A stretch of 32,000 bases of DNA from Geotalea daltonii FRC-32 (GTDB lineage: Bacteria; Desulfobacterota; Desulfuromonadia; Geobacterales; Geobacteraceae), in assembly GCF_000022265.1 (NCBI RefSeq), contig NC_011979.1:4050001-4082000 (forward strand). Reading direction: 5' to 3'. The notes under the pieces were generated by a model. The model saw only the letters and a list, made by a program, of their open reading frames with translations, did not search any database and was not told where the DNA came from. Positions 15,359 to 31,437 of this stretch are shown here, in pieces (the stretch's first letter is position 1; every line of letters starts with the position of its first letter). Made by a program: the position numbers and the translations under genes.

Positions 15359-15369
15359 AAGAGGTATGT

Positions 15370-18322: not shown

Positions 18323-18341
18323 GAATCGGGTATATTTGAAT

Positions 18342-18377
18342 AAAAGGCCGCCTTTCTGAAGAGGGCGGCCTTTTTTG
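18342..18377 (+). terminator. Rho-independent terminator after hpnH
   Basis: AAAAGGCCGCC (18342-18352) pairs with GGCGGCCTTTT (18364-18374), followed by a T-run. This is the last backbone feature before the island. Confidence 0.75.
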
Positions 18378-18548
18378 CTTCGGATGGAGCGGTTTCAGAC
18401 CGCCCTGCTTGACATCTTTATTCAGAGTAAATGTTTTTCAGGCTCTTTATCCTTTAAAGAATTGATTATGTTAGTTAAACCAGAAATAGCCGTAAACAGG
18501 TCACCTCATGACGGTTGACTGACCACCTGAAATCATTTTGTCCAAAGG

Positions 18549-18935: not shown

Positions 18936-18941
18936 CCCTAT

Positions 18942-18991
18942 TAAGTTCTGGGGTAAGTTCTGGGGTGTCAGGTAAGTTCTGGGGTGTCAGG
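18942..18991. repeat. Tandem repeat array at the left flank of RAYT element 1
   Basis: The array is TAAGTTCTGGGG (12 nt), then 2 x TAAGTTCTGGGGTGTCAGG (19 nt). The last GGTGTCAGG is also the outer 9 bp of the left terminal inverted repeat. Confidence 0.8.
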
Positions 18992-19214
18992 CTTGACTTT
19001 CGGACATTTCTTCCATCTCGCCCCGTAACTCCTCAAGGAGTTTTATCAGCCGAGCATCTGCCTGCCGGATCAAGCGCTGCGCTGCCTTGCCAAGGGCAGT
19101 GATATCACGTTGCAGCACCTTGCCTAGTTCTGTCAGGGTGAGATGCGGTGATTCCTGGACAAGAACTGCAGCAACTGCTCTTGCCTCGCTGAATGGCCTC
19201 TTCTTTCCAGGCGC
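18987..19214 (-). pseudogene. Detached DnaA_C-like HTH tail of RAYT 1 (75 codons in frame after the TAA)
   Basis: Reading on after the stop in the same frame gives APGKKRPFSEARAVAAVLVQESPHLTLTELGKVLQRDITALGKAAQRLIRQ... This aligns with CPGKERAVARAKAIFCYLAVREYGYTGTEAGKVVGIGSAGASIAARR of RAYT 3. The final TGA lies inside the left terminal repeat. Confidence 0.6.
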
Positions 19215-19937
19215 TTAGAGTTCTTTCGCTGCTATTCCATAACGACGGCAGATGGCATCGATGAGTTCGTCAAGTTGCCATTCACGCCGCCAATGCTGGT
19301 TCGCCCTTGTCAGCGCTTTATCTGCGAAACAATCATCACCAAGAATCCGTCCCTCGCATGTGCCACTATGGAATTCATTTCTTCTTCCCTCGGCAATGCC
19401 ATCTAAAAGAAACTGCCGATAATGCTGGATGGCCGCGTTGATTTCCCCCGAGAACAGGGCAAGTACCCATTCGGTCGTCAGCCACGGGAGCATCTCCTTG
19501 CCGAGATACGCATTATGACCGCTCCAGCGGTAGCCTTCAGGACATTCTGTCATTCCGGCCCGCACGGGGTTGAGATGGACATAACGGACGAGTTCGAGCA
19601 GGTAAGCGTCAGCATCCAACATGATTGCCTTGTAGCGTCCCTGGAAGAGATGCCCGGTGCGCCGGCGGGTGTAATTGATCCATCTGGTGTATTTAAGCGA
19701 CAGACTCTGCATGATACGCGAGAGGGGAATCTCTTCCACCTGCAAAATCAGATGGACATGGTTAGTCATACAGCAAAATCCGTGAATCCGGCAATGAAAT
19801 CGTTCTATTACTTCCTGCATGTGCAGATAGAAACGAAATCGGTCACGATCCTTGAAAAAGAGTGGTTCGCCGGCATTGCCACGCAGAATGACGTGGTAGA
19901 CAGCGCCGGGGTAATGTATGCGAGGTTTACGGGCCAT
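19215..19937 (-). CDS. HUH Y1 (REP-associated tyrosine / IS200-like) transposase, catalytic part, ending at a premature in-frame TAA
   Basis: The product starts MARKPRIHYPGAVYHVILRG. The HUH motif is TNHVHLIL and the catalytic Tyr context is GHLFQGRYKA. It aligns along its length with the 322 aa copy at 29789-30757. Confidence 0.75.
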   Translation of the reverse strand: MARKPRIHYPGAVYHVILRGNAGEPLFFKDRDRFRFYLHMQEVIERFHCRIHGFCCMTNHVHLILQVEEIPLSRIMQSLSLKYTRWINYTRRRTGHLFQGRYKAIMLDADAYLLELVRYVHLNPVRAGMTECPEGYRWSGHNAYLGKEMLPWLTTEWVLALFSGEINAAIQHYRQFLLDGIAEGRRNEFHSGTCEGRILGDDCFADKALTRANQHWRREWQLDELIDAICRRYGIAAKEL

Positions 19938-19972
19938 AAAGAAACAATATATCAAAATGTCCGAATGTCAAG

Positions 19973-20047
19973 CCTGACACCTACGGTTGGCCCTGACACC
20001 TACGGTTGGCCCTGACACCTACGGTTGGCCTGACACCTACGGTTGGC
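19973..20047. repeat. Tandem repeat array at the right flank of RAYT element 1 (4 copies)
   Basis: The array is 3 x CCTGACACCTACGGTTGGC (19 nt) plus one 18-nt copy. The CCTGACACC core is the outer 9 bp of the terminal repeat. The 10-nt spacer (TACGGTTGGC) differs from the spacer of the left array. Confidence 0.85.
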
Positions 20048-20369
20048 CGCAGAGTATGGACTTGTAGCGGTTCTGGAACAGATGGCCGCAGCGCTGATAT
20101 TTGCGATTAAAGTAAACGGCATAACCGGTCAGCAGACGGCGCATGGTTTCAGCAAGAGAAACTCTGGTCGGCATGAGAAGCAGATGTAAATGGTTTGACA
20201 TGAGCGCCCAAGCATAACACTTGGTGGCGCTTTTCGTGAGCAGGGCAGAAAGGCTTGCCACAAAACGTTCCTTGTCAGCATCTTCAGCGAAAATGTCACG
20301 GCGTTCGATCCCGCGAACAATGACGTGATGGAGGACGTCGGGTATGTCAAGACGTGGTTGGCGTGGCAT
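20048..20369 (-). pseudogene. RAYT copy 2, only the N-terminal ~107 codons (3'-truncated at the tandem array)
   Basis: The track ORF 20037-20369 gives MPRQPRLDIPDVLHHVIVRG...RYKSILC, identical to residues 1-107 of the 322 aa protein at 29789-30757. It then runs into array sequence (GQP, stop). Confidence 0.85.
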
Positions 20370-20404
20370 GAGCGCAAGCTAACATAAGTATTGCTCAGTG
20401 ACAA

Positions 20405-20443
20405 TAGTTAATTAGCAAGCAACGTCCCCCTAGCTCCCCCTAG
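20405..20443. repeat. Right terminal repeat of RAYT copy 2 plus a GTCCCC-box doublet
   Basis: TAGTTAATTAGCAAGCAACGTCCC (identical to 30793-30816) is followed by CCTAGCTCCCCCTAG. The box sequence is directly fused to Rhs-derived sequence at 20444. Confidence 0.7.
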
Positions 20444-20815
20444 AAGTAATCGATGCGGTTGCCCTGGGGAAAGATGATGTGGTCGATCTTGCTGATCGTC
20501 CCGCCGCAACTGGCACAGCCGACGGTGGTGTAGCCATACTCGGTGACTGCGGTGTCGCCGGGGGTCTTGATGGTGAGGACCCTGCCGACATTGTCGTAGG
20601 TGTAGGTTGTGGTATTGCCGTTGGGGTCGGTTATTCGGAGCAGCGCCGGGGCAGAAAGCTCCTCCACCTTCAAAAGTGGGTTTCGTGAGATCAATATTTC
20701 CATAAAAGTCCAATAAAGTGATTGGGTTAGACTCAACATAAATAAAGAGATTTACCCCTCCCATAAGCCCAATCGGGTCAGCTTGGATGTCCCCGTAGAG
20801 ATTTACGTCCCCGCC
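20440..20815 (-). pseudogene. Rhs scars: a core-end remnant joined out of frame to a ~200-bp YD-repeat fragment
   Basis: Frame A reads ...DPIGLMGGVNLFIYVESNPITLLDFYG (the Rhs core-end motif). Frame B reads ITDPNGNTTTYTYDNVGRVLTIKTPGDTAVTEYGYTTVGCASCGGTISKIDHIIFPQGNRIDYF, a near-copy of the large Rhs at about 27660-27860. There is no usable start, and the two frames differ. Confidence 0.7.
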
Positions 20816-20816
20816 C
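20787..20816. repeat. GTCCCC-box doublet (REP-like) directly after the CPBP stop codon
   Basis: ATGTCCCCGTAGAGATTTACGTCCCCGCCC. It has the same box and orientation as the copies at 20421, 24867, 25007 and 30809. Confidence 0.55.
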
Positions 20817-21467
20817 TTAAACCCAATTGGGGCCTTTTGTATGTAGGTATGTGATTAAAAACCACATGCAATTGTTGAAAATATGTGCTGCGATACTGCT
20901 CTTTATAGATTTCGATTTTTCAAAAGTGTAGGTATATACTATTCCCTGCAATGCGATATTACCTAAATTTGAATCTAGTGCATGAAATGCAACGAAAATG
21001 CTGTTTGAAATTATGAACGCAACACCTATTCCAAACTCATTTCTACTTATACTATACAAATAGTACCTAAATATAATTTCTTCTACCACTGGCGCAATAA
21101 TGCAACTAACCAACAAAAAAACAATTAGGCCAAACGTTGTATATTTCCTAAGATATGACAAATCATAACCAAAGCCAATCCAGTAATAGTTGATTGCATA
21201 CAGCACTATAAAAAATAATATAGCAGTAATTGCGTATTTGAACGATATTGGTTTGATTATAGTTTCTTTAAAACGTGTAGTATCTCTTTTATATATATAA
21301 AATATTACCGGTAAATATACCAAGATAACAGTAGATGAGTTATCAATATAGCCATTTGGAATCGACAACGTTAACAAAAAATAAACTACGAAGGACAGAA
21401 TTAGAATGACAATTATTCGTATAATTTCTGCCAAACTATTTGATTTTGTATACTTTGACATTTTCAT
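20817..21467 (-). CDS. CPBP family (CAAX protease / Abi) intramembrane metalloprotease in the immunity-gene position
   Basis: A 216 aa polytopic membrane protein with all three CPBP motifs: EEIIFR (EExxxR), FVAFH (FxxxH) and HIFNN (HxxxN). Its ATG overlaps the upstream Rhs stop as ATGA (21467-21464). It is strongly AT-rich compared with its neighbours. Confidence 0.85.
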   Translation of the reverse strand: MKMSKYTKSNSLAEIIRIIVILILSFVVYFLLTLSIPNGYIDNSSTVILVYLPVIFYIYKRDTTRFKETIIKPISFKYAITAILFFIVLYAINYYWIGFGYDLSYLRKYTTFGLIVFLLVSCIIAPVVEEIIFRYYLYSISRNEFGIGVAFIISNSIFVAFHALDSNLGNIALQGIVYTYTFEKSKSIKSSIAAHIFNNCMWFLITYLHTKGPNWV

Positions 21468-23623
21468 TGTAACATTTGCGGTTTTAATGGGTTTGGTGAC
21501 ATTGGGCTGTTGTATGGCGCTGGAGCCAAAGGGTTATATCCTTCCACAGGAGGAGAGGGCTTTTCCTTTTCTCGGCAAGCATTATCCTTCAGGTAATTGG
21601 AAACCTTTGCTGCTGTATCCAATGTTTTTCCTGGTTTAACTGTTGCGACCTTATATGCCGTAGCTTGGAGTGCTGGGAGGTATTGCAAGGTCGCCATAAG
21701 TCCTTCAGGATCAATAAAGTTAATAGGATTATTTTGAACGTAAGCGTATAGGTTTATCCCCCCTCTGAACCCGATGGGGTCCTTTTGGATATACCTCCCT
21801 ATACTCGGATTATAATCCCTGAAGTAATTGTAGTTCAGCCCTGATTCTTGGTCTGCATACTGGCCCGGAAACCTAAGGTTCAGAGTTCCTGCTCCCGTTA
21901 TTGCTGCGCTGTCCCCAAACGGCCTGCCTTCAATCTCCCATACCTTCGCTCCGCTTGCATCGGACATAATCAGTGGAGTGCCAAGATGGTCAGTATGGAT
22001 GTAGTTTGTGCCTGTTGCATTGATCTTCGCAACAGGCTCCCCGTTCAGATACACATACTCCGTCAATCCATCACTGGCATTTTCCACCAGCAGGCTGCCT
22101 GCCCGATCATAAATAAAATGGATTGTCGTGCCAACTGTTGTTTTCTTTACTCGTTCTCCACTGGCATTATAGACATAATCTCCTGTCTGAGTTGCCGCGG
22201 CTCGTATTAACCTCTGATTCTGGTTATAGGTGTAAGTGGTGGCATTATCAGCAATGCTGTTGCCGTTGGCATCGTAGTTGAGGCTGTTTGTGTTTGCGTC
22301 CGTTATGCCTGTTAGCCTATTGCTGCCGGGTTGATAGTTGTAGCTCGTCGTGGCGGTTCCATCCACCTGCGTTAAGCGATTCCCTACTCCGTCATATGTC
22401 CATGAAAGATTGCCCCAAGGCCCTGCTGCTGTTTTCAGCCTGTTTAGTGCATCGTAACTGTAGGTCTTGTTTTTGTTGTTGTCGAGGGTGTTGGTGATGC
22501 TGGTGATGTTGCTGTTGGCGTCAAAGCCGTATGTGAGGCTCTGCAAGGTTGCCGTAGCGATGCTCACAATCCTGTACTGGTTGTCGTAGCCGATAGTTCT
22601 GATGATGCCGTTACCATAGGTGACACTTGCGACCCCACCAAAGGGCTTGTAGGTGATGTTGCCGGCAAGGCTTGTGGTTACACCGCCAATGGTGCTGGTT
22701 ATACTGCTTACCAGGTCATTGGTGTAATTGTAGGTTATCACCCTGCCGCTCGGGTAGGTGATGGTTCTGGTGTTGCCGTTCATGTCGTAGGTGTACTGGG
22801 TGATGTAGGTAATGCCGTCTATGGTCTGGGTCTCTTTGGCGATCTGACCTTTTTTGGTGTATTCGTAGGTGGTGCTGCCGCTTTGATCGGTTACTACGCA
22901 CAGCCTCCCCTTGCCGTTTGGACAAGTGTCGTAGGTATAGGTGATGTCGGTATCTGTCGGATAGTCTGTTTTTGTAAGCCTGTTGGCTGCATCGTATTGG
23001 TAACCGATCGTCACGCCTTTTGCGTCGGTCCTGGTCCTGAGGTTGCCGGCAGGGTCGTAGGTGTAGGTGGTGGTGCCGGTATCGGGGGAGATGGTCTGGT
23101 AGAGCCTCCCTTTGTCGTCGTATTTGTAGACGGTGCTGTTGGTGTTGCCGTCGGTTACGGTGGTCAGGTTGTTGTTCGAGTTGTAATTGAAGGCGGTGGT
23201 GACAGTGCCCGGTTGAATGGTTGTGGTGAGCCGGCTCAGGGCATCGTATTGACTGGTGGTGATGTTTTGTTTCGGGTCTTTAAAGCTGGTCTGGTTGCCG
23301 AGGTTGTCGTAGGTGTACTGGCTGAAGGTGTTGTCTGGGTAGATGGTTTTTGTCATACGACTGAGGGCATCGTACTGGTAGCTGATGGTCTTTTGCAGGG
23401 TACCCGACGGATCTTTGGTCTCTTCCTTGAGTTGATTTCCTTCGCTGTCGTAGGTGTAGTTAATGCTGTTCCCCTGGTTGTCGGCAATTTTACTCAGGTT
23501 GCCCATATTGTCATAGAAGTAATCGATGCGGTTGCCCTGGGGGAAGATGATATGGTCGATCTTGCTGATCGTTCCGCCGCAACTGGCACAGCCGACGGTG
23601 GTGTAGCCATACTCGGTAGGCAA
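21464..23623 (-). CDS. 5'-truncated orphan Rhs/YD-repeat protein with the RHS core end and a 77-aa C-terminal tip
   Basis: It contains YD repeats (YxYDxxGN/R), the core end YIHTDHLGTP...DPIGFRGGINLYAYVQNNPINFIDPEGL, and then the tip MATLQYLPALQ...NPLKPQMLQ. There is no ATG; the track 'M' is a TTG. The sequence upstream is an out-of-frame junction. Confidence 0.8.
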   Translation of the reverse strand: MPTEYGYTTVGCASCGGTISKIDHIIFPQGNRIDYFYDNMGNLSKIADNQGNSINYTYDSEGNQLKEETKDPSGTLQKTISYQYDALSRMTKTIYPDNTFSQYTYDNLGNQTSFKDPKQNITTSQYDALSRLTTTIQPGTVTTAFNYNSNNNLTTVTDGNTNSTVYKYDDKGRLYQTISPDTGTTTYTYDPAGNLRTRTDAKGVTIGYQYDAANRLTKTDYPTDTDITYTYDTCPNGKGRLCVVTDQSGSTTYEYTKKGQIAKETQTIDGITYITQYTYDMNGNTRTITYPSGRVITYNYTNDLVSSITSTIGGVTTSLAGNITYKPFGGVASVTYGNGIIRTIGYDNQYRIVSIATATLQSLTYGFDANSNITSITNTLDNNKNKTYSYDALNRLKTAAGPWGNLSWTYDGVGNRLTQVDGTATTSYNYQPGSNRLTGITDANTNSLNYDANGNSIADNATTYTYNQNQRLIRAAATQTGDYVYNASGERVKKTTVGTTIHFIYDRAGSLLVENASDGLTEYVYLNGEPVAKINATGTNYIHTDHLGTPLIMSDASGAKVWEIEGRPFGDSAAITGAGTLNLRFPGQYADQESGLNYNYFRDYNPSIGRYIQKDPIGFRGGINLYAYVQNNPINFIDPEGLMATLQYLPALQATAYKVATVKPGKTLDTAAKVSNYLKDNACREKEKPSPPVEGYNPLAPAPYNSPMSPNPLKPQMLQ

Positions 23624-23653
23624 CGGTTCGTCCCAAATTGTCGGATATGCCAG

Positions 23654-24109
23654 TCAGTGTTTAAAGATCAGATTATTAATAGAATCTTCAAAGCCCTTGA
23701 AATCCTCTGCATTGCCTGTGAACAATATTGTCGTGCTTTCTTTTGGAATTGAAATGTGAAGCAGCATCAAACTGGACGATTTCATTATTGTTGAAAGCAT
23801 TAAAATTTCTCGGCCTTGTTTTTCAACAATTTTTTCCTCTTTTATAGTTTCGTTTTCCTCGATGAATTTTTTATATTTTGTAAAAAATTCTGACTTTGGC
23901 ACAACCCTTTTATTAAAAAAAATGTTTGTGCCATTGGTTGGCAATTTAAGTACTAACAAACTGTTATCTTTATCATTCTTACTATTGTTAAAGGCCACTT
24001 TCATTACGATATTGTTATAAGAAATGATCTTATTATAATGATTAAAAGCCACTGAAGCTATTAAAACAATTACAATAGTTGCTGCAATAATTTGAATTTT
24101 TTTGCCCAT
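23654..24109 (-). CDS. Putative immunity protein (N-terminal membrane anchor, AT-rich)
   Basis: A 151 aa ORF that starts 10 nt after the stop of the Rhs tip at 24120. It has one N-terminal hydrophobic helix (IIAATIVIVLIASVAF). I do not recognise a family. The call rests on position and composition. Confidence 0.55.
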   Translation of the reverse strand: MGKKIQIIAATIVIVLIASVAFNHYNKIISYNNIVMKVAFNNSKNDKDNSLLVLKLPTNGTNIFFNKRVVPKSEFFTKYKKFIEENETIKEEKIVEKQGREILMLSTIMKSSSLMLLHISIPKESTTILFTGNAEDFKGFEDSINNLIFKH

Positions 24110-24119
24110 GAAGCGCCCC

Positions 24120-24674
24120 CTATTTACGGTACTTGCCTGTTACTGGCCCAGTTATGCTTGTGTTTGTAGGTGAGTTTCTTATTATATCCATTGTCTCTGG
24201 ATGCATTATTAGTTCTATTTCTTTCGCTGCCCAATCATGAATGATAGCTTCTTCAATCTTGCCTTTATCAAAAGCTTCCTCTCTTTTCCGTAATTGATAT
24301 TGCAAAATGTCTCTTGTATCTTGGGATTGCATATATGACCTCATAAACTTCAACAATCCTGTGGGATCAAGATCTAAACAATCTAACAAACCTAATGAAT
24401 CCACCTTATTTATCGGATTATTTTGGACATACGAATATAGGTTTATCCCTCCGGCTATACCTATTGGATCTTTTTGGATGTAGCGCCCAACGCTCGGATT
24501 GTAATCCCTGAAATAGTTGTAATGGTTCCCTGTCTCTGTATCAAAGTACTGGCCCGGAAACCTAAGGTTCAGCATTCCCGCTCCAGTTATTGCCGCATTG
24601 TCGCCAAATGGTCTGGCCTCAATCGCCCATACCTTGGCACCGCTTGCATCCGTCATCATCTGCGGTGTGCCCAA
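24120..24674 (-). CDS. Orphan Rhs core-end fragment with an 88-aa C-terminal tip
   Basis: The sequence ...HLGTPQMMTDASGAKVW...DPIGIAGGINLYSYVQNNPIN is nucleotide-identical to 25874-26188. It then reads KVDSLGL plus a unique tail, LDCLDLDPTG...GKYRK. There is no ATG; the track start is the TTG of HLG. Confidence 0.7.
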   Translation of the reverse strand: MGTPQMMTDASGAKVWAIEARPFGDNAAITGAGMLNLRFPGQYFDTETGNHYNYFRDYNPSVGRYIQKDPIGIAGGINLYSYVQNNPINKVDSLGLLDCLDLDPTGLLKFMRSYMQSQDTRDILQYQLRKREEAFDKGKIEEAIIHDWAAKEIELIMHPETMDIIRNSPTNTSITGPVTGKYRK

Positions 24675-24726
24675 ATGATCGGTGTGAATGTAGCTTGTGC
24701 CTGTTGCATCTATCTTCGCAACAGGC

Positions 24727-24840
24727 CCAGGGCATCGTAATTGTCGTAGGTGGTGGTGCCAATGAGAGGCTCAGTTTTTGTCAGCATGTTGCCATTGGCG
24801 TCGTAGGTGAAGGTGGTGACATCCTGCGTCGGTGGCACCC
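24727..24840 (-). pseudogene. Short YD-repeat fragment fused out of frame to the orphan core end
   Basis: It translates as ...PTQDVTTFTYDANGNMLTKTEPLIGTTTYDNYDALG, homologous to ...DVEDVTTFTYDPVTSNRLTMTEPLIGTTTYANYDGLG of the large Rhs. It hits a stop just after the junction at 24726/24727. Confidence 0.6.
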
Positions 24841-24866
24841 GAAATGTTGGCTAATGCAATAAAGCA

Positions 24867-24908
24867 GGAACGTCCCCTTAGATTTTCGGAACGTCCCCTT
24901 AGATTTTC
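24867..24908. repeat. Perfect 2 x 21-nt tandem GTCCCC-box repeat (solo RAYT-end-like REP)
   Basis: GGAACGTCCCCTTAGATTTTC occurs twice. The preceding AAAGCAGGAACGTCCCCTTAG resembles the RAYT 2/3 right end, TAGCAAGCAACGTCCCCCTAG. Confidence 0.75.
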
Positions 24909-25098
24909 GTTACCAAAATGATGGGATAGGTGCGTCCAGAATCAGACAGCATCGCTAAATATTCGATTTAAAAGAGCAATATTTTCAGTTGACAGAGAGA
25001 CTATAGAATGTCCCCGCAGGTTTCTCCCGAAGTCTTGTTAAATCACGGCTTCACGGCGTTTTTGCCGGTGCGGTTTGTGAAAAATGTAAACGCTACCC

Positions 25099-25461
25099 CT
25101 ATGGGTTACCTCTAAATTTCCTTGTAATCCCTACTGAGGCCAAATACTTCTCATAAATATCTATTGCTTTTGAATCGCCATCAAACAAATCTTCATAAAA
25201 TCCAGGCTCGCTGAATTCAGGTGGATCTATATAATATTCATCAGCTTCATATTCTTTTCGAATCCATGATTGTGGAATTGATGAATCGATAATCTCAAAA
25301 AGATACTTAGGGTATAAAATTGGATCACCAACTTGATCAACTATTCTGAAACAATCATGATCAATTCCAATAACATCATAAGTTTCGTTTGGCTTAATGT
25401 TCTTATTGTCAAATTGATCTAATATATGGTTATGTACTTCTTGTTTTGCTTTGACTTTCAT
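25099..25461 (-). CDS. Putative cytoplasmic immunity protein (acidic, about 120 aa)
   Basis: It lies downstream of the large Rhs tip. The start was set at MKVKAKQE because AGGAG lies 11 nt upstream; the track ORF starts at 25512. It is AT-rich with no TM segment. I cannot assign a family. Confidence 0.55.
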   Translation of the reverse strand: MKVKAKQEVHNHILDQFDNKNIKPNETYDVIGIDHDCFRIVDQVGDPILYPKYLFEIIDSSIPQSWIRKEYEADEYYIDPPEFSEPGFYEDLFDGDSKAIDIYEKYLASVGITRKFRGNP

Positions 25462-25521
25462 AAAAATATATTCTCCTATGAAAAATAAAGACGCAAGGCA
25501 TAATAATAGCATACCATTTGT

Positions 25522-28500
25522 TTAAAATGGATCTGGTGATCCGGCTGGTTTTTTACCCACTTTGTTCCCATTATTCTCATACCAGTGCCATTCTTTACCA
25601 AATTCATCCCATCCTTTTTTCTTCAACCAATCTTTAGCTTTACCTCCAAATTTCTCAACAAGCTCATCGACCTTTCTGATATTTCTTCCTTTAGCTATTA
25701 TCTCAGATGAGCTCAGTATGCTTTTGGTAAATTTTTCAGTCATACCAATAGGCAGAAGGTTTTCTAAGACTTGTTGAAGTGTTTCTCTGTCCTTGTCATC
25801 GCAAGGCTTATACTCTCTTGCCCGCTTTAACAGATCGCTATACGGAGAAAGACCCTCCGGATCAACCCAGTTAATCGGATTATTTTGGACATACGAATAT
25901 AGGTTTATCCCTCCGGCTATACCTATTGGATCTTTTTGGATGTAGCGCCCAACGCTCGGATTGTAATCCCTGAAATAGTTGTAATGGTTCCCTGTCTCTG
26001 TATCAAAGTACTGGCCCGGAAACCTAAGGTTCAGCATTCCCGCTCCAGTTATTGCCGCATTGTCGCCAAATGGTCTGGCCTCAATCGCCCATACCTTGGC
26101 ACCGCTTGCATCCGTCATCATCTGCGGTGTGCCCAAATGATCGGTGTGAATGTAGCTTGTGCCTGTTGCATCTATCTTCGCAACAGGCTCCCCGTTCAGA
26201 TAGACATATTCCGTCAATCCATCACTGGCGTTTTCAATAAGCAGGCTGCCTGCCCGATCATAAACGAAATGGGTTGTCGTTCCAACCGTTGTTTTCTTTA
26301 CTCTTTCGCCACTGGCATTATAGGCGTAATCCCCGGTCTGGATCGCAGCGGCTCTTATCAGTCGTTGGTTCTGATTATAAGTGTAGGTGGTGGCGTTGTC
26401 GGTAACGGTGTTGCCGTTGGCGTCGTAAGCGAAACTGGAGGTGGTAGCTCCTGTGATGCCGGTAAGCTTGTTGCTCCCCGGCTGGTAAACATAGCTGCTT
26501 GTGCCCACACTATCCACCTGCGTCAGCCGATTCCCCACGGGGTCATAGGTCCATAGCATGTTCCCCCATGTGCCTGTGGCGCTGCTCAGCCTGTTCAGAG
26601 CATCGTAACTGTAGCTCTTGTTTTTCGTATTGTCGAGGGTGTTGGTTATGCTGGTGATGTTGCTGTTTGCGTCAAAGCCATACGATAAGCTCTGGATAGT
26701 TCCTGTGGTAGTGCTGGCAATCCTGTACTGATTGTCGTAGTTAATGGTTCTTGGTAAGGCGTTACCATAGGTCAGGCTTGCCAGTCCTCCAAAAGGTTTA
26801 TAGGCGATGTTGCCGGCAAGGGTTGTAGTAACGCCGCCAATGGTGCTGGTCATACTTGTTACCCGGTCATTGGTGTAGTTGTAGGTTATCACCCTGCCGC
26901 TCGGGTAGGTAATGGTTCTGGTGTTGCCGTTCATGTCGTAGGTGTACTGGGTGATGTAAGGGATGCCGTCTATGGTCTGGTTCTCTTTGGCAATCTGAAC
27001 TTTTTTGGTGTACTCATAGCTGGTTGTTCCGCTTTGATCGGCAACGGCACAGAGCCTTCCCTTACCGTTGACGCAGTTATCGTAGGTATAGGTGATGTCG
27101 GTATCTGTCGGATAGTCTGTTTTTGTAAGCCTGTTGGCGGCATCGTAGGTATAGGCTATGGTAATTCCCTTTGCATCGGTCTTGGTCTTGAGATTGCCGG
27201 CAGGGTCATAGGTATAGGTGGTGGCGCCGGTATCGGGGGAGATGGTCTGGTAGACCCTGCCCTTGTCGTCGTATTTGTAGACGGTGCTGTTGGTGTTGCC
27301 GTCGGTTACGGTGGTCAGGTTGTTGTTTGAGTTGTAATTGAAGCCGGTGGTGATATTGCCCGGTTGAATGGTGGCGGTGAGCCGGCTTAAGGAGTCGTAC
27401 TGGCTGGTGGTGATGTTTTGTTTCGGGTCTTTGAAACTGGTCTGGTTGCCGAGGTTGTCGTAGGTGTACTGGCTGAAGGTGTTATCGGGGTAGATGGTTT
27501 TTGTCAGGCGACTGAGGGCATCGTACTGGTAGCTGATGGTTTTTTGCAGGATGCCGGTTGGGTCTTTGATCTCTTCCTTGAGCTGATTTCCTTCGCTGTC
27601 GTAGGTGTAGTTGATGCTGTTCCCCTGGGTGTCGGCAATTTTACTCAGGTTGCCCATACTGTCATAGAAGTAATCGATGCGGTTGCCCTGGGGGAAGATG
27701 ATATGGTCGATCTTGCTGATCGTTCCGCCGCAACTGGCACAGCCGACGGTGGTGTAGCCGTATTCGGTGACTGCGGTATCGCCGGGGGCTTTTATGGTGA
27801 GGACCCTGCCCACATTGTCGTAGGTGTAGGTTGTGGTATTGCCGTTGGGGTCGGTTATGGTGCCGGGATTGCCGAGGCCGTCGTAGTTGGCATAGGTGGT
27901 TGTGCCGATCAGCGGCTCGGTCATGGTGAGCCGATTGCTGGTGACGGGATCGTAGGTGAAGGTGGTGACGTCTTCAACATCAGTGCGGGGGCCGTCGATT
28001 CTCGTGACGTGACCGTGGATGTCGTATTCATAGGAGGTAGTATAGGTGTAAGAGGTTCCATCCCCTGAAAGACCGGTCTCGGTACTGCTGCTGACATTGC
28101 CGGTCCCGTCATAGGCATAGGTAAGCACCGAGTCTTGCAATGGGTTCACCGCACTTTTCATGGTTTTGGTGACCAGCCTTCCGAAGGTTGGATGGTAGGT
28201 GTAACTGGCGGTCTTTGCCACGGCACTGCCAGAGCCCCTGGTCTCGGTGAGGATATTCCCTTTGTCATCGTAGGTGAAATCATTGGCGGTTTTGAGAACC
28301 AGATTGGGAGTGGCTGGTGTACCGGTGTTCTCCCAATATTCTTCCCTGAGAATCCAGGTTTTGTCATTTCGGGTATACCTGGTTTCGTTGCCGAAGGTAT
28401 CGGTTACTTTGCTGGGCTGGCCTTGATCGTCGAACTCGACGGTGCGGGTCTGGGTGTTGAGAACTGCGCCGGCCGGGTCTTTGATTGTGGTGGTTATCTG

Positions 28501-28737
28501 GGTCTTTTTGCCGGGGGTGATGTAGTTGAAATCAATGGTACCGTTGCCATGGGACTGCTTGGTCACTCTCCCCGCGGCGCTGCCGGTATTGACAAAGGCT
28601 CCTCCTCCTTCATCAACGCTGGTCATAAGGTGCTTGTTGTTTGGATCGGTATAGGAATAGGCAGCGCGTAGCAAAGGGGTAGTTACGGCTGTCAGGTTTC
28701 CGAATGCATCGTGATCGTAGGTAACGGTTCGTCCCAA
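25522..28737 (-). CDS. Large 5'-truncated Rhs/YD-repeat protein with the RHS core end and a 108-aa C-terminal tip
   Basis: It has more than 40 YD-type repeats and the core end YIHTDHLGTP...DPIGIAGGINLYSYVQNNPINWVDPEGL, followed by a basic tail. The frame is open to about 28854, with no ATG and only a TTG at 28737. It begins about 20 nt after the CPBP stop, so the N-terminal delivery region is missing. Confidence 0.85.
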   Translation of the reverse strand: MGRTVTYDHDAFGNLTAVTTPLLRAAYSYTDPNNKHLMTSVDEGGGAFVNTGSAAGRVTKQSHGNGTIDFNYITPGKKTQITTTIKDPAGAVLNTQTRTVEFDDQGQPSKVTDTFGNETRYTRNDKTWILREEYWENTGTPATPNLVLKTANDFTYDDKGNILTETRGSGSAVAKTASYTYHPTFGRLVTKTMKSAVNPLQDSVLTYAYDGTGNVSSSTETGLSGDGTSYTYTTSYEYDIHGHVTRIDGPRTDVEDVTTFTYDPVTSNRLTMTEPLIGTTTYANYDGLGNPGTITDPNGNTTTYTYDNVGRVLTIKAPGDTAVTEYGYTTVGCASCGGTISKIDHIIFPQGNRIDYFYDSMGNLSKIADTQGNSINYTYDSEGNQLKEEIKDPTGILQKTISYQYDALSRLTKTIYPDNTFSQYTYDNLGNQTSFKDPKQNITTSQYDSLSRLTATIQPGNITTGFNYNSNNNLTTVTDGNTNSTVYKYDDKGRVYQTISPDTGATTYTYDPAGNLKTKTDAKGITIAYTYDAANRLTKTDYPTDTDITYTYDNCVNGKGRLCAVADQSGTTSYEYTKKVQIAKENQTIDGIPYITQYTYDMNGNTRTITYPSGRVITYNYTNDRVTSMTSTIGGVTTTLAGNIAYKPFGGLASLTYGNALPRTINYDNQYRIASTTTGTIQSLSYGFDANSNITSITNTLDNTKNKSYSYDALNRLSSATGTWGNMLWTYDPVGNRLTQVDSVGTSSYVYQPGSNKLTGITGATTSSFAYDANGNTVTDNATTYTYNQNQRLIRAAAIQTGDYAYNASGERVKKTTVGTTTHFVYDRAGSLLIENASDGLTEYVYLNGEPVAKIDATGTSYIHTDHLGTPQMMTDASGAKVWAIEARPFGDNAAITGAGMLNLRFPGQYFDTETGNHYNYFRDYNPSVGRYIQKDPIGIAGGINLYSYVQNNPINWVDPEGLSPYSDLLKRAREYKPCDDKDRETLQQVLENLLPIGMTEKFTKSILSSSEIIAKGRNIRKVDELVEKFGGKAKDWLKKKGWDEFGKEWHWYENNGNKVGKKPAGSPDPF

Positions 28738-28874
28738 ATTGTCGGCAATACCCTTAAGCCTGCCGGTGGTCGGATCGTAGGTGAAGGTGACGCGTGTGCC
28801 GGTGAGCGAACCGGTGGCGTCTTTTTCCTCGATGCTGTGCAGGCGGAAAGGGCCTTATCAATAGGTACCAGATG

Positions 28875-29525
28875 TTAAGACCATAGAAATGTCAATAAAA
28901 ACCACAGGCTATTATTATACATATGCAGTATTATGCTGCATTTAATGGAATTAGATATTTCAAAAAATACAGTATATATAATCCCTTGAATCAATATATC
29001 TAACATGTTAGCCGATTGATATATATGCATTCCGGCAAATAATAAAACGGATACCAATATTCCAGGGACAAGACCGTATTTAGTTTTAATTATGCCATAA
29101 TAATAGCACCTGAATAATATTTCTTCTAGTAAAGGAATGATAAAACAAGCAATCAGTAAGTAAGCAAACTTTGATACTGTGTTCATTTCATATAATTTTA
29201 GAAATACTTCGGAAACATTATTATTTTTCAACCAGAAATAATAAGGAATAAAGAGGATAGTAATTATGATATTCCCAACTACTAGATATTTCAAATGAGT
29301 TCGCTTGCTTATTGCGGCAGTCAATGTGGTTGGTGCTTTTAAATGTAGATATAAAATTGCTGCAATGTACATTAGAACAATCATCAAATTGTGGATAATT
29401 GAGGTATCAGAAATATTCGTTACAAATATGACATAAAATAAAAATACTATGAACATTATAAAGCTTGATACAAAAATATCAGAAACCGTAATAATATTAT
29501 ATGCTTGAAGTGTTACTTTGTTCAT
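28875..29525 (-). CDS. CPBP family (CAAX protease / Abi) intramembrane metalloprotease, second paralog, in the immunity-gene position
   Basis: A 216 aa ORF with the motifs EEILFR, FAGMH and HMYNN. It shares blocks with the 20817-21467 protein (IQGI.YT..FE.S.SIK.SI..H..NN..WFL.T.L). Its ATG lies 1 nt after the TAA of the upstream tip remnant. It is very AT-rich. Confidence 0.85.
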   Translation of the reverse strand: MNKVTLQAYNIITVSDIFVSSFIMFIVFLFYVIFVTNISDTSIIHNLMIVLMYIAAILYLHLKAPTTLTAAISKRTHLKYLVVGNIIITILFIPYYFWLKNNNVSEVFLKLYEMNTVSKFAYLLIACFIIPLLEEILFRCYYYGIIKTKYGLVPGILVSVLLFAGMHIYQSANMLDILIQGIIYTVFFEISNSIKCSIILHMYNNSLWFLLTFLWS

Positions 29526-29526
29526 A

Positions 29527-29749
29527 TTATTGGTTATCCACCTTAATTGTTATGGGAGGAGCTACTGGCTCACCTGTCAATGGGTTTACTGTCATTGTGC
29601 AAAAAAACTTTACTTTGTCTTTTAACTGCTCAAGAGTTTTTTTAGCTTGCTTGGCTGCTTCGTCTTTGACAGGCATGCCAGGACTTTTATTTCCGAGATC
29701 ATATAGTTTCGGGTCCTTGGGAGGGTCCTTGGGAGGGTCCTTGGGAGGG
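29527..29749 (-). pseudogene. Remnant of an Rhs C-terminal tip (Pro-rich linker plus about 60 aa), 5'-truncated by RAYT element 3
   Basis: Hand translation gives (NNV)PPKDPPKDPPKDPKLYDLGNKSPGMPVKDEAAKQAKKTLEQLKDKVKFFCTMTVNPLTGEPVAPPITIKVDNQ, then a stop. The 3 x 12-nt repeat GGGTCCTTGGGA (29711-29746) is the in-frame PPKD linker. There is no start codon. Confidence 0.6.
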
Positions 29750-30816
29750 ACGTTGTTAGCTAATCAACTAACTGCCTCCCCTTCAATTTTATATCCCCAG
29801 CTCCGGGTAACTCTTCAATAACTCCGCTCCCCGTCTGGCCGCTATAGACGCGCCTGCCGAGCCGATCCCTACGACCTTCCCGGCCTCTGTGCCCGTATAG
29901 CCATACTCACGTACTGCCAAGTAGCAGAAGATAGCTTTTGCCCGTGCTACGGCGCGCTCTTTGCCGGGACACTGCATTCGGTCTGCAACCACTCCGGTCA
30001 CGGCACAGACTCTGTCTAGCAATTCAACCAAGGCAAGACGTGGTTTATTCTTCTCCACCACGCTGGCCCCCTGGGTCAACTTTTCCACAAACCCGCCACT
30101 GCCAAGGATTCGCTCATCAAAGGCGGCTATTTCTTTGATCTCCATGCAATCGGGCTGGCTGCGCTTAAGTCCGCCCCCGACCAGATCCTGGCGATGTCCT
30201 GTGGTAATTCCATCGGCGACGAACTGCCAATAGCCACGAACTGCGCGTGCCCTGGTATTTCCAAAACGTGTCAGTACCTCGTCCGTCTCCTGACCTTCCA
30301 TGGCCCGCTTACCGAGTAATACTGCATGGCCACTCCACGGGTAGCTTCCCAGTTCATTCATATCGGAAACCATGCCCGCTCGTAGCGGGTTCAAATGGAT
30401 ATAGCGCACAAGTTCGAGAAAGTAAGGATCCTCCTCGCAGAGTATGGACTTGTAGCGGTTCTGGAACAGATGGCCGCAGCGCTGATATTTGCGATTAAAG
30501 TAAACGGCATAACCGGTCAGCAGACGGCGCATGGTTTCAGCAAGAGAAACTCTGGTCGGCATGAGAAGCAGATGTAAATGGTTTGACATGAGCGCCCAAG
30601 CATAACACTTGGTGGCGCTTTTCGTGAGCAGGGCAGAAAGGCTTGCCACAAAACGTTCCTTGTCAGCATCTTCAGCGAAAATGTCACGGCGTTCGATCCC
30701 GCGAACAATGACGTGATGGAGGACGTCGGGTATGTCAAGACGTGGTTGGCGTGGCATGAGCGCAAGCTAACATAAGTATTGCTCAGTGACAATAGTTAAT
30801 TAGCAAGCAACGTCCC
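29747..30816 (-). mobile_element. RAYT / IS200-like Y1 transposase element 3 with 24-bp imperfect terminal inverted repeats
   Basis: The left end, GGGACGTTGTTAGCTAATCAACTA (29747-29770), matches the right end, TAGTTAATTAGCAAGCAACGTCCC (30793-30816), at 21 of 24 positions in inverted orientation. Confidence 0.7.
29789..30757 (-). CDS. HUH Y1 (REP-associated tyrosine / IS200-like) transposase with a C-terminal DnaA_C-like HTH domain, intact
   Basis: A 322 aa ORF starting MPRQPRLDIPDVLHHVIVRG. The HUH motif is SNHLHLLL and the Tyr context is GHLFQNRYKS. The C-terminal RAVARAKAIFCYLAVREYGYTGTEAGKVVGIGSAGASIAARRG resembles the DnaA C-terminal HTH. Confidence 0.85.
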   Translation of the reverse strand: MPRQPRLDIPDVLHHVIVRGIERRDIFAEDADKERFVASLSALLTKSATKCYAWALMSNHLHLLLMPTRVSLAETMRRLLTGYAVYFNRKYQRCGHLFQNRYKSILCEEDPYFLELVRYIHLNPLRAGMVSDMNELGSYPWSGHAVLLGKRAMEGQETDEVLTRFGNTRARAVRGYWQFVADGITTGHRQDLVGGGLKRSQPDCMEIKEIAAFDERILGSGGFVEKLTQGASVVEKNKPRLALVELLDRVCAVTGVVADRMQCPGKERAVARAKAIFCYLAVREYGYTGTEAGKVVGIGSAGASIAARRGAELLKSYPELGI

Positions 30817-30844
30817 CCTAGCCGCCCCGTCCCCCTAGCCGCCC
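30811..30844. repeat. Perfect 2 x 17-nt tandem GTCCCC-box repeat at the right flank of RAYT 3
   Basis: CGTCCCCCTAGCCGCCC occurs twice. The first copy overlaps the outer end of the terminal inverted repeat. Confidence 0.8.
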
Positions 30845-30845
30845 G

Positions 30846-31028
30846 GGTGATGCGCTTCTTTTTGATGAAGAAGAGCGAAAGCCGCCGGTTGATTTCCTTT
30901 TGCAGTTTGACGCGCTGTTGGAGTTAAACGAGGAAGAGAAAAAAGTGGTGAGGGCGGTGCTTGACGGCCTGGTTCTGCGGCATCAGGCTAAAAAGTTCAT
31001 GGACAGGCAACATGCAGAAACGCCGTGA
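30846..31028 (+). pseudogene. 3' fragment of a small regulator gene (tail resembles those of XRE/HTH-family proteins), 5'-truncated at the REP
   Basis: It is open for 60 codons without a start: GDALLFDEEERKPPVDFLLQFDALLELNEEEKKVVRAVLDGLVLRHQAKKFMDRQHAETP. The family assignment is weak and from memory of similar C-terminal tails. Confidence 0.3.
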
Positions 31029-31066
31029 AACCCTGTAGTCTAAGGCTTCACGGCGTTTTGTTTGGT
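31018..31066. terminator. Hairpin terminator between the regulator fragment and the convergent immunity gene
   Basis: CGCCGTGAA (31021-31029) pairs with TTCACGGCG (31047-31055), followed by TTTTGTTT. The 3' half (GGCTTCACGGCGTTTT) recurs at 25047-25062, downstream of the other immunity gene. Confidence 0.6.
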
Positions 31067-31097
31067 CAGGTTGTCTCATGTCTGGGGCTGACCCTGC

Positions 31098-31436
31098 CTA
31101 TTTACCCCTAAATTCCAACACAACAGAATCGTTACTGGAATTTTTCAAGCGAATTCCTCTGTTATTTGCGACAGCTAGCCAGAATATAGCCATGAATGAT
31201 GAGAGAGGCATTAAGACGGCAAACCGGGACAACGTATAAAATGTACCCAACTTGTTACCTTGCTTTTTCCTTTCGCCTTCTTGCATGTGCATTAACAATT
31301 GCAATGATGAAAGGATGACCCTAGCTCGCCAACCGCATATTGAGACGTCAAAGTCCTTGTTTTCATTCAACAACCTTTTTGCCTTCGCACCAAAGCCACG
31401 TTCACTATACTCTAGCACTTCCGCCTGATTTCCCAT
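31098..31436 (-). CDS. Putative immunity protein with one hydrophobic segment
   Basis: A 112 aa ORF whose ATG lies 1 nt after the TAA of the Rhs gene (TAA-A-ATG). It has a hydrophobic stretch, FAVLMPLSSFMAIFWLAVA. I do not recognise a family. Confidence 0.55.
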   Translation of the reverse strand: MGNQAEVLEYSERGFGAKAKRLLNENKDFDVSICGWRARVILSSLQLLMHMQEGERKKQGNKLGTFYTLSRFAVLMPLSSFMAIFWLAVANNRGIRLKNSSNDSVVLEFRGK

Positions 31437-31437
31437 T

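What the first reader, a model, noticed from the sequence alone, without database searches (positions are those of the whole stretch)
20405..30844. GTCCCC-box REP-like doublets related to the RAYT 2/3 right end sit at cassette junctions
The same short box, (A/C)(C/T)GTCCCC(N)TAG-like, occurs as a direct doublet in the same orientation at five sites:
- 20421-20443, fused directly to Rhs sequence;
- 20787-20816, immediately after a CPBP stop;
- 24867-24908, a perfect 2 x 21 nt repeat between two orphan cassettes;
- 25007-25026, a degenerate copy;
- 30811-30844, a perfect 2 x 17 nt repeat.

An inverted copy lies in the left end of RAYT 3 (29747-29755). The box is the outer part of the RAYT 2/3 terminal repeat.

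All five sites lie in the gaps between cassettes, and four of them directly abut a cassette boundary or a truncation point; 25007-25026 sits about 70 bp from the nearest cassette boundary (the immunity-gene stop at 25099). This suggests that RAYT/REP activity, or recombination between REP copies, has been cutting and reshuffling the toxin cassettes. I do not know of a described link between REP/RAYT systems and polymorphic-toxin cassette turnover.
Basis: seen in the sequence. Interest (0 to 1): 0.7.

Follow-up and report, generated by a model that had tools for sequence, protein, structure and literature searches.

The report
Transposon end relics in toxin array
The repeated GTCCCC boxes are the outermost bases of the inverted-repeat ends of small insertion-sequence-like elements (a known class called TIRtrons) that have landed in a decaying Rhs toxin gene array, and there is no evidence that they shuffle the toxin cassettes.

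Summary
Three of the five sites are real and related: 20421-20443, 24867-24908 and 30811-30844. Each is the outer tip (…AACGTCCCC) of a 24-29 nt terminal inverted repeat (TIR), followed by a short tandem duplication of tip plus flank.

- Sites 1 and 5 are the same end of two copies of one ~1.1 kb element. One copy is intact and one is truncated. The element encodes a 322-aa Y1 (HUH) transposase.
- Site 3 is a solo TIR of a different subfamily.
- Site 2 is degenerate Rhs core-end coding sequence, where GGG GAC encodes Gly-Asp.
- Site 4 is at chance level.

None of the boxes can form a hairpin, so they are not REPs. The elements match the described TIRtron/TIRYT class (TnpA_REP subclass 2.1).

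Relatives in about 100 public loci share the GGGGACG tip. About 25% of their ends carry the same tip-abutting tandem duplications, against 0-3% in control windows. I did not find this hallmark described in the papers I read.

The elements are probably multi-copy in the source genome. Two of the three in the array are truncated, which is typical of insertion-sequence pile-up and decay in a dispensable orphan array.

Relatives sit in or next to rhs genes in 5 of about 92 other loci. This is suggestive, but I had no control set. Cassette reshuffling by these boxes is not supported.

The parts
29711..29749 (.). Left-end tandem array of the intact element (TIRtron-B, 'RAYT 3'): 12 nt x3.2 (GGGTCCTTGGGA), running into the TIR tip GGGACG.
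   Evidence: TRF. A Logan contig that is 100% identical to the window ends at 29740, inside the array. This fits another genomic copy sharing the array.
29747..29770 (.). Left TIR of TIRtron-B (GGGACGTTGTTAGCTAATCAACTA).
   Evidence: Inverted repeat I9, 24 nt, 88% complementary. The TIR is conserved in relatives.
29789..30757 (-). 322-aa TIR-associated Y1 (HUH) tyrosine transposase ('RAYT 3').
   Evidence: Pfam Y1_Tnp, E 3.7e-12. NCBIfam REP_Tyr_transpos scores 62 bits, below the 80-bit cut-off. The HUH and catalytic Tyr columns are invariant. The C-terminus gives a weak Bac_DnaA_C match (E 0.016). More than 8000 homologs exist, and some carry PF08299.
30793..30816 (.). Right TIR of TIRtron-B (gene 5' side), ending ...GCAAGCAACGTCCC(CC).
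   Evidence: I9. 22/24 match to a family TIR.
30811..30844 (+). Finding site 5: perfect 17 nt x2 duplication of TIR tip (CGTCCCC) plus 10 nt of flank (CTAGCCGCCC).
   Evidence: TRF. The second copy has no inner TIR beside it.
20048..20434 (-). Truncated second copy of TIRtron-B ('RAYT 2'). It keeps the first ~107 codons plus the right TIR and is 100% identical to 30436-30822. It is cut at 20048 by the right-end array of TIRtron-A.
   Evidence: (D6).
20421..20443 (+). Finding site 1: TIR tip plus a 10-nt partial duplication (TCCCCCTAGC TCCCCC), fused to an Rhs repeat fragment. The last TAG (20441-20443) is Rhs sequence.
   Evidence: alignment with paralogs at 23498 and 27649; D4: 20441-20634 is 95% identical to 27665-27858.
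24849..24877 (+). Solo TIR of a third TIRtron subfamily (reverse complement GGGGACGTTCCTGCTTTATTGCATTAGCC). The element body that should lie to its left is replaced by an Rhs fragment.
   Evidence: 25 of the 26 aligned TIR positions match the L046 upstream TIR. It also aligns with L051, L037 and L038. 18/24, p<0.003.
24867..24909 (+). Finding site 3: perfect 21 nt x2 duplication of 11 nt of TIR tip (GGAACGTCCCC) plus 10 nt of flank (TTAGATTTTC).
   Evidence: TRF. The arrangement is identical in three independent Logan assemblies.
20690..20852 (-). Degenerate, partly duplicated Rhs core-end coding sequence. It contains finding site 2 (20787-20816), where the two GTCCCC boxes are GGG-GAC (Gly-Asp) codons.
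   Evidence: Alignment with four other Rhs core ends. Reading-frame inspection of the region. No TIR beside either box.
25007..25026 (+). Finding site 4: an isolated GTCCCC, not distinguishable from chance.
   Evidence: 13/24, p=0.25. No hairpin.
18942..20048 (-). TIRtron-A ('RAYT 1'), a different subfamily. Left array 18942-18991 (19 nt x2.1); TIRs 18983-19009 and 19955-19981 (27 nt, 96%); 246-aa Y1 transposase 19215-19955; right array 19973-20048 (19 nt x4.1). It shows the same tip-plus-flank duplication at both ends.
   Evidence: I2. Three 100%-identical Logan contigs all stop at 19009, as expected at the edge of a multi-copy repeat.

Best explanation
**What the boxes are.** The GTCCCC boxes are the outermost bases of the terminal inverted repeats of TIRtrons. 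TIRtrons are ~1.05-1.15 kb insertion-sequence-like elements. Each encodes one TIR-associated Y1 (HUH) tyrosine transposase (TIRYT, TnpA_REP subclass 2.1): an N-terminal HUH/Tyr nuclease domain plus a C-terminal DnaA-C-like helix-turn-helix.

**What the array holds.** Four element relics lie in the rhs orphan array, all in one orientation:
- an intact copy of type B (29711-30844);
- a 5' fragment of a second type-B copy (20048-20443);
- an intact type-A element abutting the truncated end of that fragment (18942-20048);
- a solo end of a third type (24849-24909).

**What the doublets are.** They are short tandem duplications of [TIR tip + 5-10 nt of adjacent flank].

**Shown.**
- The tip GGGGACG is conserved across the whole protein family, while the inner TIR varies.
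- Duplications abutting the tip occur at all six element ends in the window and at about 25% of ends in relatives. They are almost absent 100 nt away or inside the elements.

**Inferred.**
- The conserved tip is the site where the Y1 enzyme cuts and rejoins DNA.
- The duplications are by-products of that chemistry, from nicking followed by slipped or aberrant rejoining or repair. Ordinary slippage can then expand them.
- Outer copies can serve as the end in a later transposition, which would explain why GCTAG travels with type-B copies.

**Why they sit at cassette junctions.** The most economical reading is passive. The orphan array is dispensable DNA where insertions and the deletions that follow are tolerated. 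So the elements accumulate and decay there, leaving ends that abut truncated Rhs fragments.
For: **Protein family.**

**TIRs in the window.**

**The same TIR with a GGGGACG tip occurs in relatives.** 13 genome loci and 80 metagenome loci.

**Formal TIR test of every GTCCCC in the window.**

**Solo TIR identity.**

**Tip-abutting tandem duplications are specific to the ends.**
- 22/88 ends, against 3/88 control windows 100 nt further out and 0/88 inside the element.
- 19 of the 22 arrays end within 7 nt of the tip.
- An extra GGAC[GC] lies within 60 nt in the same orientation at 21/100 ends, against 3/100 in the reverse orientation.

**The closest relatives show the same thing.** L110 (98% identical protein), L111 (91%) and L112 (86%) have tip duplications with different flank-derived units. 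L110 keeps GCTAGGGGGACG but has a different outer flank.

**Multi-copy behaviour.**
- Many homologs sit on ~1.1-1.4 kb contigs.
- 100%-identical Logan contigs break at element edges, at 19009 and 29740.

**Literature.** TIRtron/TIRYT with G-rich TIR motif GGGGWSAS (PMC3733652). Subclass 2.1 with Bac_DnaA_C/HTH equated with TIRYT (PMC6006769).
Against: - The source genome is not available. Genome-wide copy number and distribution of the three TIR types could not be counted, so a specific affinity for rhs loci is not excluded.
- The TIR tips (GGGGACGT and GGGGTGTC) fit the published GGGG[AT][CG]A[CG] motif only in 6-7 of 8 positions.
- The Bac_DnaA_C match of the window protein is below threshold (15.6 bits against 31.5).
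- No cleavage site has been mapped for any TIRYT. The link between the duplications and transposase chemistry is inference only.
- In some relatives the repeat unit ends after GGGG or GGGAC rather than after ACG, so there is no single clean junction.
- Rhs adjacency in 5 of about 92 other loci looks higher than I would expect for random insertion. All are co-oriented with the rhs gene.
Confidence: 0.75

Rival explanations
1. The boxes are REP-like sequences. RAYT cleavage at them, or homologous recombination between them, cuts and reshuffles Rhs toxin/immunity cassettes.
For: - Real TIR ends abut truncated Rhs fragments at 20441 and 24849.
- Two of the three elements in the array are themselves truncated, so deletions have occurred next to them.
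- Relatives lie in or beside rhs genes in L008, L024-L030, L032, L034 and L109.
Against: - The boxes have no palindrome or hairpin.
- They occur only as element ends or one solo end.
- Two of the five sites are not related to the element.
- All copies are direct repeats, so recombination between them would delete cassettes rather than shuffle them.
- Sequences flanking the different boxes are unrelated apart from the element itself.
- The other cassette junctions in the window carry no box. By inspection they look like Rhs-Rhs joints (for example at ~23620 and ~24730); I did not map these breakpoints formally.
Confidence: 0.1
2. Tip-mimic targeting. These elements insert preferentially next to sequences that resemble their own tip ((T/A)A-GGGGACG). 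Some Rhs core ends encode exactly this (GGDVNLY = GGG GGG GAC GTA...). That would give a real, sequence-driven affinity for rhs loci and, through insertion and adjacent deletion, a role in orphan-cassette decay.
For: - In L032 the element sits 20 nt after GGGGACGTAAATCTA, which encodes GGDVNL of an Rhs core end, on the same strand.
- The window's site 2 carries the same Rhs-encoded GGGGACGTAAATCT.
- The base before the G-run is A in 60% of ends, and the one before that is T in 42%.
- All six rhs-associated cases, including the window, have the transposase gene co-oriented with rhs.
- 5 of about 92 loci are rhs-adjacent.
Against: - Only one clear case exists (L032).
- In L109, and at RAYT 2 in the window, the Rhs target has no tip-like motif.
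- There is no control set for the adjacency rate.
- Most outer tip copies are perfect duplications that include flank, so they are not pre-existing target motifs.
Confidence: 0.1
3. The boxes are chance or compositional matches, with no common origin.
For: GTCCCC alone is not enriched in the window. Sites 2 and 4 behave as chance matches.
Against: The 11-mer is far above expectation. The perfect 17- and 21-nt tandem repeats, and the 18-22/24 matches of the adjoining sequence to family TIRs, exclude chance for sites 1, 3 and 5.
Confidence: 0.02

Closest known systems
TIRtrons / TIRYT (TIR-associated tyrosine transposases; Di Nocera et al. 2013, PMC3733652), equated with TnpA_REP subclass 2.1 (Quentin et al. 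2018, PMC6006769)
   Same: - A single RAYT-like Y1 (HUH) gene is flanked by terminal inverted repeats instead of REP hairpins.
- The TIR tip is G-rich (published motif GGGG[AT][CG]A[CG]; here GGGGACGT and GGGGTGTC).
- The C-terminus carries a DnaA-C-like or HTH extension.
- TIR copies can occur singly, as dimers or in groups.
   Different: - The tips here match the published motif at 6-7 of 8 positions.
- I found no mention in either paper of tandem duplication of [tip + flank] abutting the ends, which is quantified here.
- No association with rhs loci has been described.
REP / REPIN-RAYT systems (Nunvar 2010; Bertels & Rainey 2011; Ton-Hoang 2012)
   Same: The transposase is homologous: Y1 HUH, with NCBIfam REP_Tyr_transpos as best hit. 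Short conserved repeats flank the gene in inverted orientation, and a conserved short 'head' lies next to the presumed cleavage site.
   Different: - The repeats have no palindromic hairpin.
- The doublets are direct tandem copies, not inverted REPINs.
- The gene appears multi-copy and behaves like an insertion sequence, rather than single-copy and vertically inherited.
- The NCBIfam score is below the equivalog cut-off.
IS200/IS605 family (IS608, ISDra2)
   Same: Y1 HUH transposase fold. All four relics in the window share one orientation, which would fit the strand-specific (lagging-strand) insertion known for this family.
   Different: IS200/IS605 elements have subterminal hairpins, no TIRs and a ~130-150 aa TnpA. 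Here the TIRs are 24-29 nt and the proteins are 246-322 aa with an extra DNA-binding domain. The IS200 model matches only weakly (E 0.0013, 19 bits).
Insertion-sequence-like elements embedded in Rhs loci (H-rpt / ISAs1-type elements in E. coli Rhs elements; own knowledge, not checked here)
   Same: Insertion sequences accumulate in the dispensable part of rhs loci downstream of the core.
   Different: The transposase family is different (DDE versus Y1 HUH). No tip duplications are described for those elements.

Membership tests
REP (repetitive extragenic palindrome) | 20-40 nt imperfect palindrome able to form a stem-loop in single-stranded DNA | tested here: not met
   DNA folding of all five sites and of the RAYT 3 left end gives minimum free energies of -0.4 to -6.9 kcal/mol and z-scores of -0.71 to +1.34 against shuffles.
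REP (repetitive extragenic palindrome) | High copy number, dispersed in extragenic DNA independently of the transposase gene | not testable with these tools
   The source genome is not in the collections. Within the 32 kb window, real copies occur only at element ends plus one solo end.
REPIN | Two REPs in inverted orientation separated by a short spacer | tested here: not met
   All doublets are direct tandem repeats. The only inverted pairs are the two ends of a 1.1 kb element.
RAYT (REP-associated tyrosine transposase, NCBIfam NF047646 equivalog) | Score at or above the curated cut-off (80 bits) | tested here: not met
   62.4 bits (322 aa) and 70 bits (246 aa). It is the best-hitting family but falls below the cut-off.
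TIRtron / TIRYT (TnpA_REP subclass 2.1) | Y1 transposase with HUH motif and catalytic tyrosine | tested here: met
   Pfam Y1_Tnp, E 3.7e-12 and 4.2e-15. H14/H15 and Y119 are invariant in the family alignment.
TIRtron / TIRYT (TnpA_REP subclass 2.1) | Gene flanked by terminal inverted repeats rather than REP hairpins | tested here: met
   24-nt (88%) and 27-nt (96%) TIRs in the window. 25-38 nt TIRs in about 60 related loci.
TIRtron / TIRYT (TnpA_REP subclass 2.1) | TIR carries the motif GGGG[AT][CG]A[CG] | tested here: inconclusive
   GGGGACGT matches 6/8 and GGGGTGTC matches 7/8. The G-run, W and S positions fit, but the A at position 7 does not (motif from PMC3733652 and PMC6006769).
TIRtron / TIRYT (TnpA_REP subclass 2.1) | C-terminal Bac_DnaA_C / HTH domain | tested here: inconclusive
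   The window protein scores E 0.016, 15.6 bits (cut-off 31.5) over residues ~247-296. Homologs at 57-72% identity carry a precomputed PF08299 hit, and P0117 (57%) aligns with the window protein throughout its C-terminus.
IS200/IS605 | No TIRs, subterminal hairpins, small TnpA matching the IS200 model | tested here: not met
   TIRs are present. NF033573 scores 19 bits against a cut-off of 55, and only for the 246-aa protein.

The most novel reading that the evidence does not exclude
This reading has two linked parts.
1. The tip-abutting tandem duplications are a molecular footprint of TIRYT catalysis: cleavage at GGGGACG followed by aberrant rejoining. That would make them the first handle on where and how these unstudied Y1 transposases cut.
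2. The elements have a real affinity for rhs loci, through tip-like motifs on the Rhs coding strand or through strand-specific insertion. They would then be an unrecognised driver of truncation and loss of orphan toxin/immunity cassettes.
Probability: 0.15. Interest if true: 0.6.

Novelty: new member of a known kind. Interest (0 to 1): 0.3.

Why it matters
As posed, the finding would have linked REP/RAYT systems to polymorphic-toxin diversification. The evidence instead shows ordinary insertion-sequence biology: members of a described but experimentally unstudied element class (TIRtrons) sit and decay in a dispensable orphan array.

Two by-products may be useful.
- The family-wide conservation of the GGGGACG tip, together with the tip-abutting duplications at about a quarter of ends, points to the likely cleavage site. 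It also gives a testable footprint for an enzyme class whose mechanism is unknown.
- The repeated, co-oriented occurrence of these elements in or beside rhs genes in unrelated metagenomes is worth a controlled test.

Tried and rejected
- **Exact-protein look-ups.** Both transposases and the 112-aa immunity protein found nothing. The source genome is not in the GTDB representative set; the best genome hit has 78% protein identity.
- **Hexamer enrichment.** GTCCCC in the window: rejected, 13 against 20 expected.
- **Hairpin/REP structure of the boxes.** Rejected.
- **Known RNA families over 18300-32000.** None.
- **Site 2 as a REP doublet.** Rejected; it is Rhs core-end coding sequence.
- **Site 4 as a degenerate TIR.** Not supported.
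- **Target-site duplication flanking RAYT 3.** None is visible; the flanks at the two ends are unrelated (inspection).
- **The palindrome GGGGACGTCCCC as the insertion target.** I considered this because site 3 reads GGAACGTCCCC. I dropped it because the adjoining 29 nt are a full TIR of another subfamily.
- **An intact partner (inverted copy) for the solo TIR.** None in the window at up to 3 mismatches.
- **Inferring copy number of the solo TIR from assembly breaks.** Not possible, because the TIR is shorter than the assembler's presumed k-mer.
- **A proper background rate for Rhs adjacency.** None could be built with the available tools.
Full report
**Setting.** From about 18.4 kb to the right edge, the window is an rhs locus on the minus strand. 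It holds:
- an Rhs C-terminus with a 112-aa putative immunity gene (31098-31935);
- two large orphan Rhs fragments (25522-28737 and 21464-23623);
- smaller Rhs fragments (24120-24862 and 20441-20852);
- small putative immunity genes (25099-25512 and 23654-24109);
- two Rce1-like/CPBP membrane proteins (28875-29525 and 20817-21467).

Three Y1_Tnp genes lie among them: 19215-19955 (246 aa), 20037-20369 (a fragment) and 29789-30757 (322 aa). Upstream is a hopanoid gene cluster that ends with a radical-SAM gene at 17324-18322.

**Checking the observation.**
- The 11-mer CGTCCCCNTAG occurs exactly five times, all on the + strand.
- With one mismatch allowed there are 8 hits against 1.7 expected.
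- GTCCCC alone is not enriched: 13 against 20 expected.
- The right-hand sequence of RAYT 2 and RAYT 3 is one 387-bp block of 100% identity (20048-20434 = 30436-30822). Sites 1 and 5 are therefore the same end of two copies of one element.
- That end pairs with 29747-29770 as a 24-nt inverted repeat.
- The 246-aa gene has its own 27-nt inverted repeats at 18983-19009 and 19955-19981.

**What the elements are.** The 322-aa protein's best NCBIfam hit is REP_Tyr_transpos, but below the cut-off. Its HUH and Tyr motifs are intact and its C-terminus matches Bac_DnaA_C weakly.

It has more than 8000 homologs. Many sit on contigs of only 1.1-1.4 kb, which is typical of multi-copy repeats, and some carry a PF08299 annotation.

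I examined thirteen genome loci from Geobacteraceae and related MAGs (32-78% identity, plus one short fragment) and eighty metagenome loci (42-74% identity). About 60 of the metagenome loci, and eight genome loci read by eye, show the same anatomy:
- an element of about 1.05-1.15 kb;
- 25-38 nt terminal inverted repeats;
- an outer tip GGGGACG(T/C) conserved across the family;
- an inner part that varies by subfamily and often holds two 8-9 nt subrepeats.

This is the TIRtron/TIRYT class of Di Nocera et al. 2013. Quentin et al. 2018 equate it with TnpA_REP subclass 2.1, which carries Bac_DnaA_C/HTH C-termini.

**Which sites are real.** I compared the 24 nt beside every + strand GTCCCC with 112 family TIRs.
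- Only 20424, 30812 (both 22/24) and 24872 (18/24) exceed shuffled controls.
- Site 3 is a complete TIR of another subfamily. Its reverse complement, GGGGACGTTCCTGCTTTATTGCATTAGCC, matches 25 of the 26 aligned TIR positions of L046. Where the transposase gene should be, there is an Rhs fragment instead, so this is a solo end.
- Site 2 aligns with the other Rhs core ends. On the minus strand it reads in frame as ...YIQKAPIGFKGGDVNLYGDIQADPIGLMGGVNLF... (region). Its two boxes are Gly-Asp codons.
- Site 4 is at chance level.
- None of the sites folds better than shuffled sequence, and no Rfam family matches. A defining REP feature is therefore not met.

**The doublets.** All six element ends in the window carry a tandem duplication that runs into the TIR tip.

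| End | Repeat |
|---|---|
| RAYT 1 left | 19 nt x2.1 |
| RAYT 1 right | 19 nt x4.1 |
| RAYT 2 right | 10 nt x1.9 |
| RAYT 3 left | 12 nt x3.2 |
| RAYT 3 right | 17 nt x2 |
| Solo TIR | 21 nt x2 |

Each unit holds 4-11 nt of TIR tip plus 5-10 nt that differ from end to end, so that part is derived from the flank.

The same is seen in relatives:
- 22 of 88 ends have a tandem repeat of at least two copies (period 8-18 nt) in the 80 nt ending at the tip.
- Only 3 of 88 control windows 100 nt further out have one, and 0 of 88 inside the element.
- 19 of the 22 arrays end within 7 nt of the tip.
- An extra GGAC[GC] lies within 60 nt in the same orientation at 21 of 100 ends, against 3 of 100 in the reverse orientation.
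- The closest relatives of RAYT 3 (98%, 91% and 86% identity) also have tip duplications, each with a different unit. The 98% relative keeps GCTAGGGGGACG but has a different outer flank.
- The base before the G-run is A in 60% of ends, and the one before that is T in 42%.
- At site 1 the second TAG is Rhs sequence.

I infer that the tip is where the Y1 enzyme cuts and rejoins. I also infer that the duplications are by-products of that reaction, later expanded by slippage. This has not been shown. I found no mention of the feature in the two papers that describe the class.

**Copy number in the source genome.** Logan assemblies from three runs contain contigs 100% identical to the window.
- Three contigs end exactly at 19009, the inner edge of the RAYT 1 left TIR.
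- One ends at 29740, inside the RAYT 3 left array.
- Three span site 3 unchanged.

Breaks at element edges are what multi-copy elements produce in a de Bruijn graph assembly. This is an inference, and the k-mer size is assumed.

**Do the boxes reshuffle cassettes?** The three real boxes mark two insertions of one element and one solo end.
- Two of the three elements in the array are truncated. RAYT 2 lost everything beyond codon ~107 at the junction with RAYT 1's right-end array, and the site 3 element lost its body. Deletions have therefore occurred beside them.
- No cassette is bracketed by boxes.
- All copies are direct repeats.
- The other junctions in the array (for example at ~23620 and ~24730) carry no box. 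By eye they look like Rhs-Rhs joints; I did not map them formally.

The simplest reading is accumulation and decay of insertion-sequence-like elements in dispensable DNA.

**A residual signal.** Relatives lie in or beside rhs genes in five other independent loci out of about 92:
- L008;
- L024-L030, directly after an Rhs/immunity pair;
- L032, inside the core end, 20 nt after codons GGDVNL, which spell GGGGACGTAAATCT;
- L034;
- L109, inside the core at ETG|LYY.

In all six cases, counting the window, the transposase gene is co-oriented with rhs. I could not build a control, so enrichment is unproven. Passive accumulation in accessory regions, strand-specific insertion and tip-mimic targeting all remain possible.

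**Verdict.** The boxes are real relatives of the RAYT end at three of five sites. They are TIR tips of a known class of Y1-transposase elements, not REPs, and there is no evidence that they drive cassette turnover.

Noticed in passing
window 18942-18991 and 19973-20048: Both ends of the RAYT 1 element carry 19-nt tandem arrays (x2.1 and x4.1). Each unit has 9 nt of TIR tip (GGTGTCAGG / CCTGACACC) plus 10 nt that differ between the two ends. This is the same phenomenon as the GTCCCC doublets, but in a different TIR subfamily.
   Followed up: partly
window 31018-31060, 25044-25065; L030 ~5897-5940: A terminator-like palindrome (AAACGCCGTGAA...CTTCACGGCGTTT) follows the 112-aa immunity gene. Half of it recurs about 35 nt after the 137-aa immunity gene. 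A related copy lies directly upstream of the TIRtron in L030, also after an Rhs/immunity pair in another organism.
   Followed up: no
window 30846-31028 (+): A 60-codon open frame (GDALLFDEEERKPP...HAETP*) starts directly at the end of the RAYT 3 right array and converges on the immunity gene. It looks like the C-terminus of a small regulator truncated by the insertion. It has no Pfam hit.
   Followed up: partly
window 18549-18944 (-): The C-terminal part of an Ig-like (Invasin_D3 / Big_1, weak hits) protein gene is truncated at its 5' side by the RAYT 1 left end. The DNA that once joined it to the rhs array is missing.
   Followed up: partly
window 20817-21467 and 28875-29525 (-): Two Rce1-like/CPBP membrane proteins (216 aa each) follow Rhs C-termini in the position of immunity genes. 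The first overlaps the stop of the 719-aa Rhs ORF. The 3' end of the 20817-21467 gene is read from Rhs core-end-like sequence in another frame.
   Followed up: no
window ~24728-24740 and ~23619-23652 / 28718-28750: Rhs-Rhs joints inside the orphan array. One is an out-of-frame fusion of two Rhs repeat fragments near 24730. The other is a shared AACGGTTCGTCCCAAATTGTCGG segment at the 5' edges of both large orphan ORFs.
   Followed up: no
L109 ~895-960: A related element is inserted inside an Rhs core (after ...FTDQEKD, at ETG|LYY). Its whole ~40-nt upstream TIR is tandemly duplicated (ATGGGGTTGGGGACGTACATTAGTTTATAAGTTGAC x2).
   Followed up: partly
L014-L023 (protein P0098): One family member (62% identical, 315 aa) sits in an identical context (HATPase_c_3 gene - Vsr - transposase - deaminase) in ten assemblies from different samples. 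It still has both TIRs. It may be a fixed or domesticated copy, or a single widespread strain.
   Followed up: no
L006 1722-2815: A second, shorter TIR-bounded unit with tip GGGGACGTTGTTTAATTGT lies next to the main element. A 31-nt tandem duplication covers its entire downstream TIR plus flank.
   Followed up: no
window 7324-19009, 24798-25903, 27829-29740: Logan contigs from SRR29904085, SRR9436587 and SRR9436588 are 100% identical to these stretches. The source organism is therefore present in those public runs and could be reassembled.
   Followed up: partly
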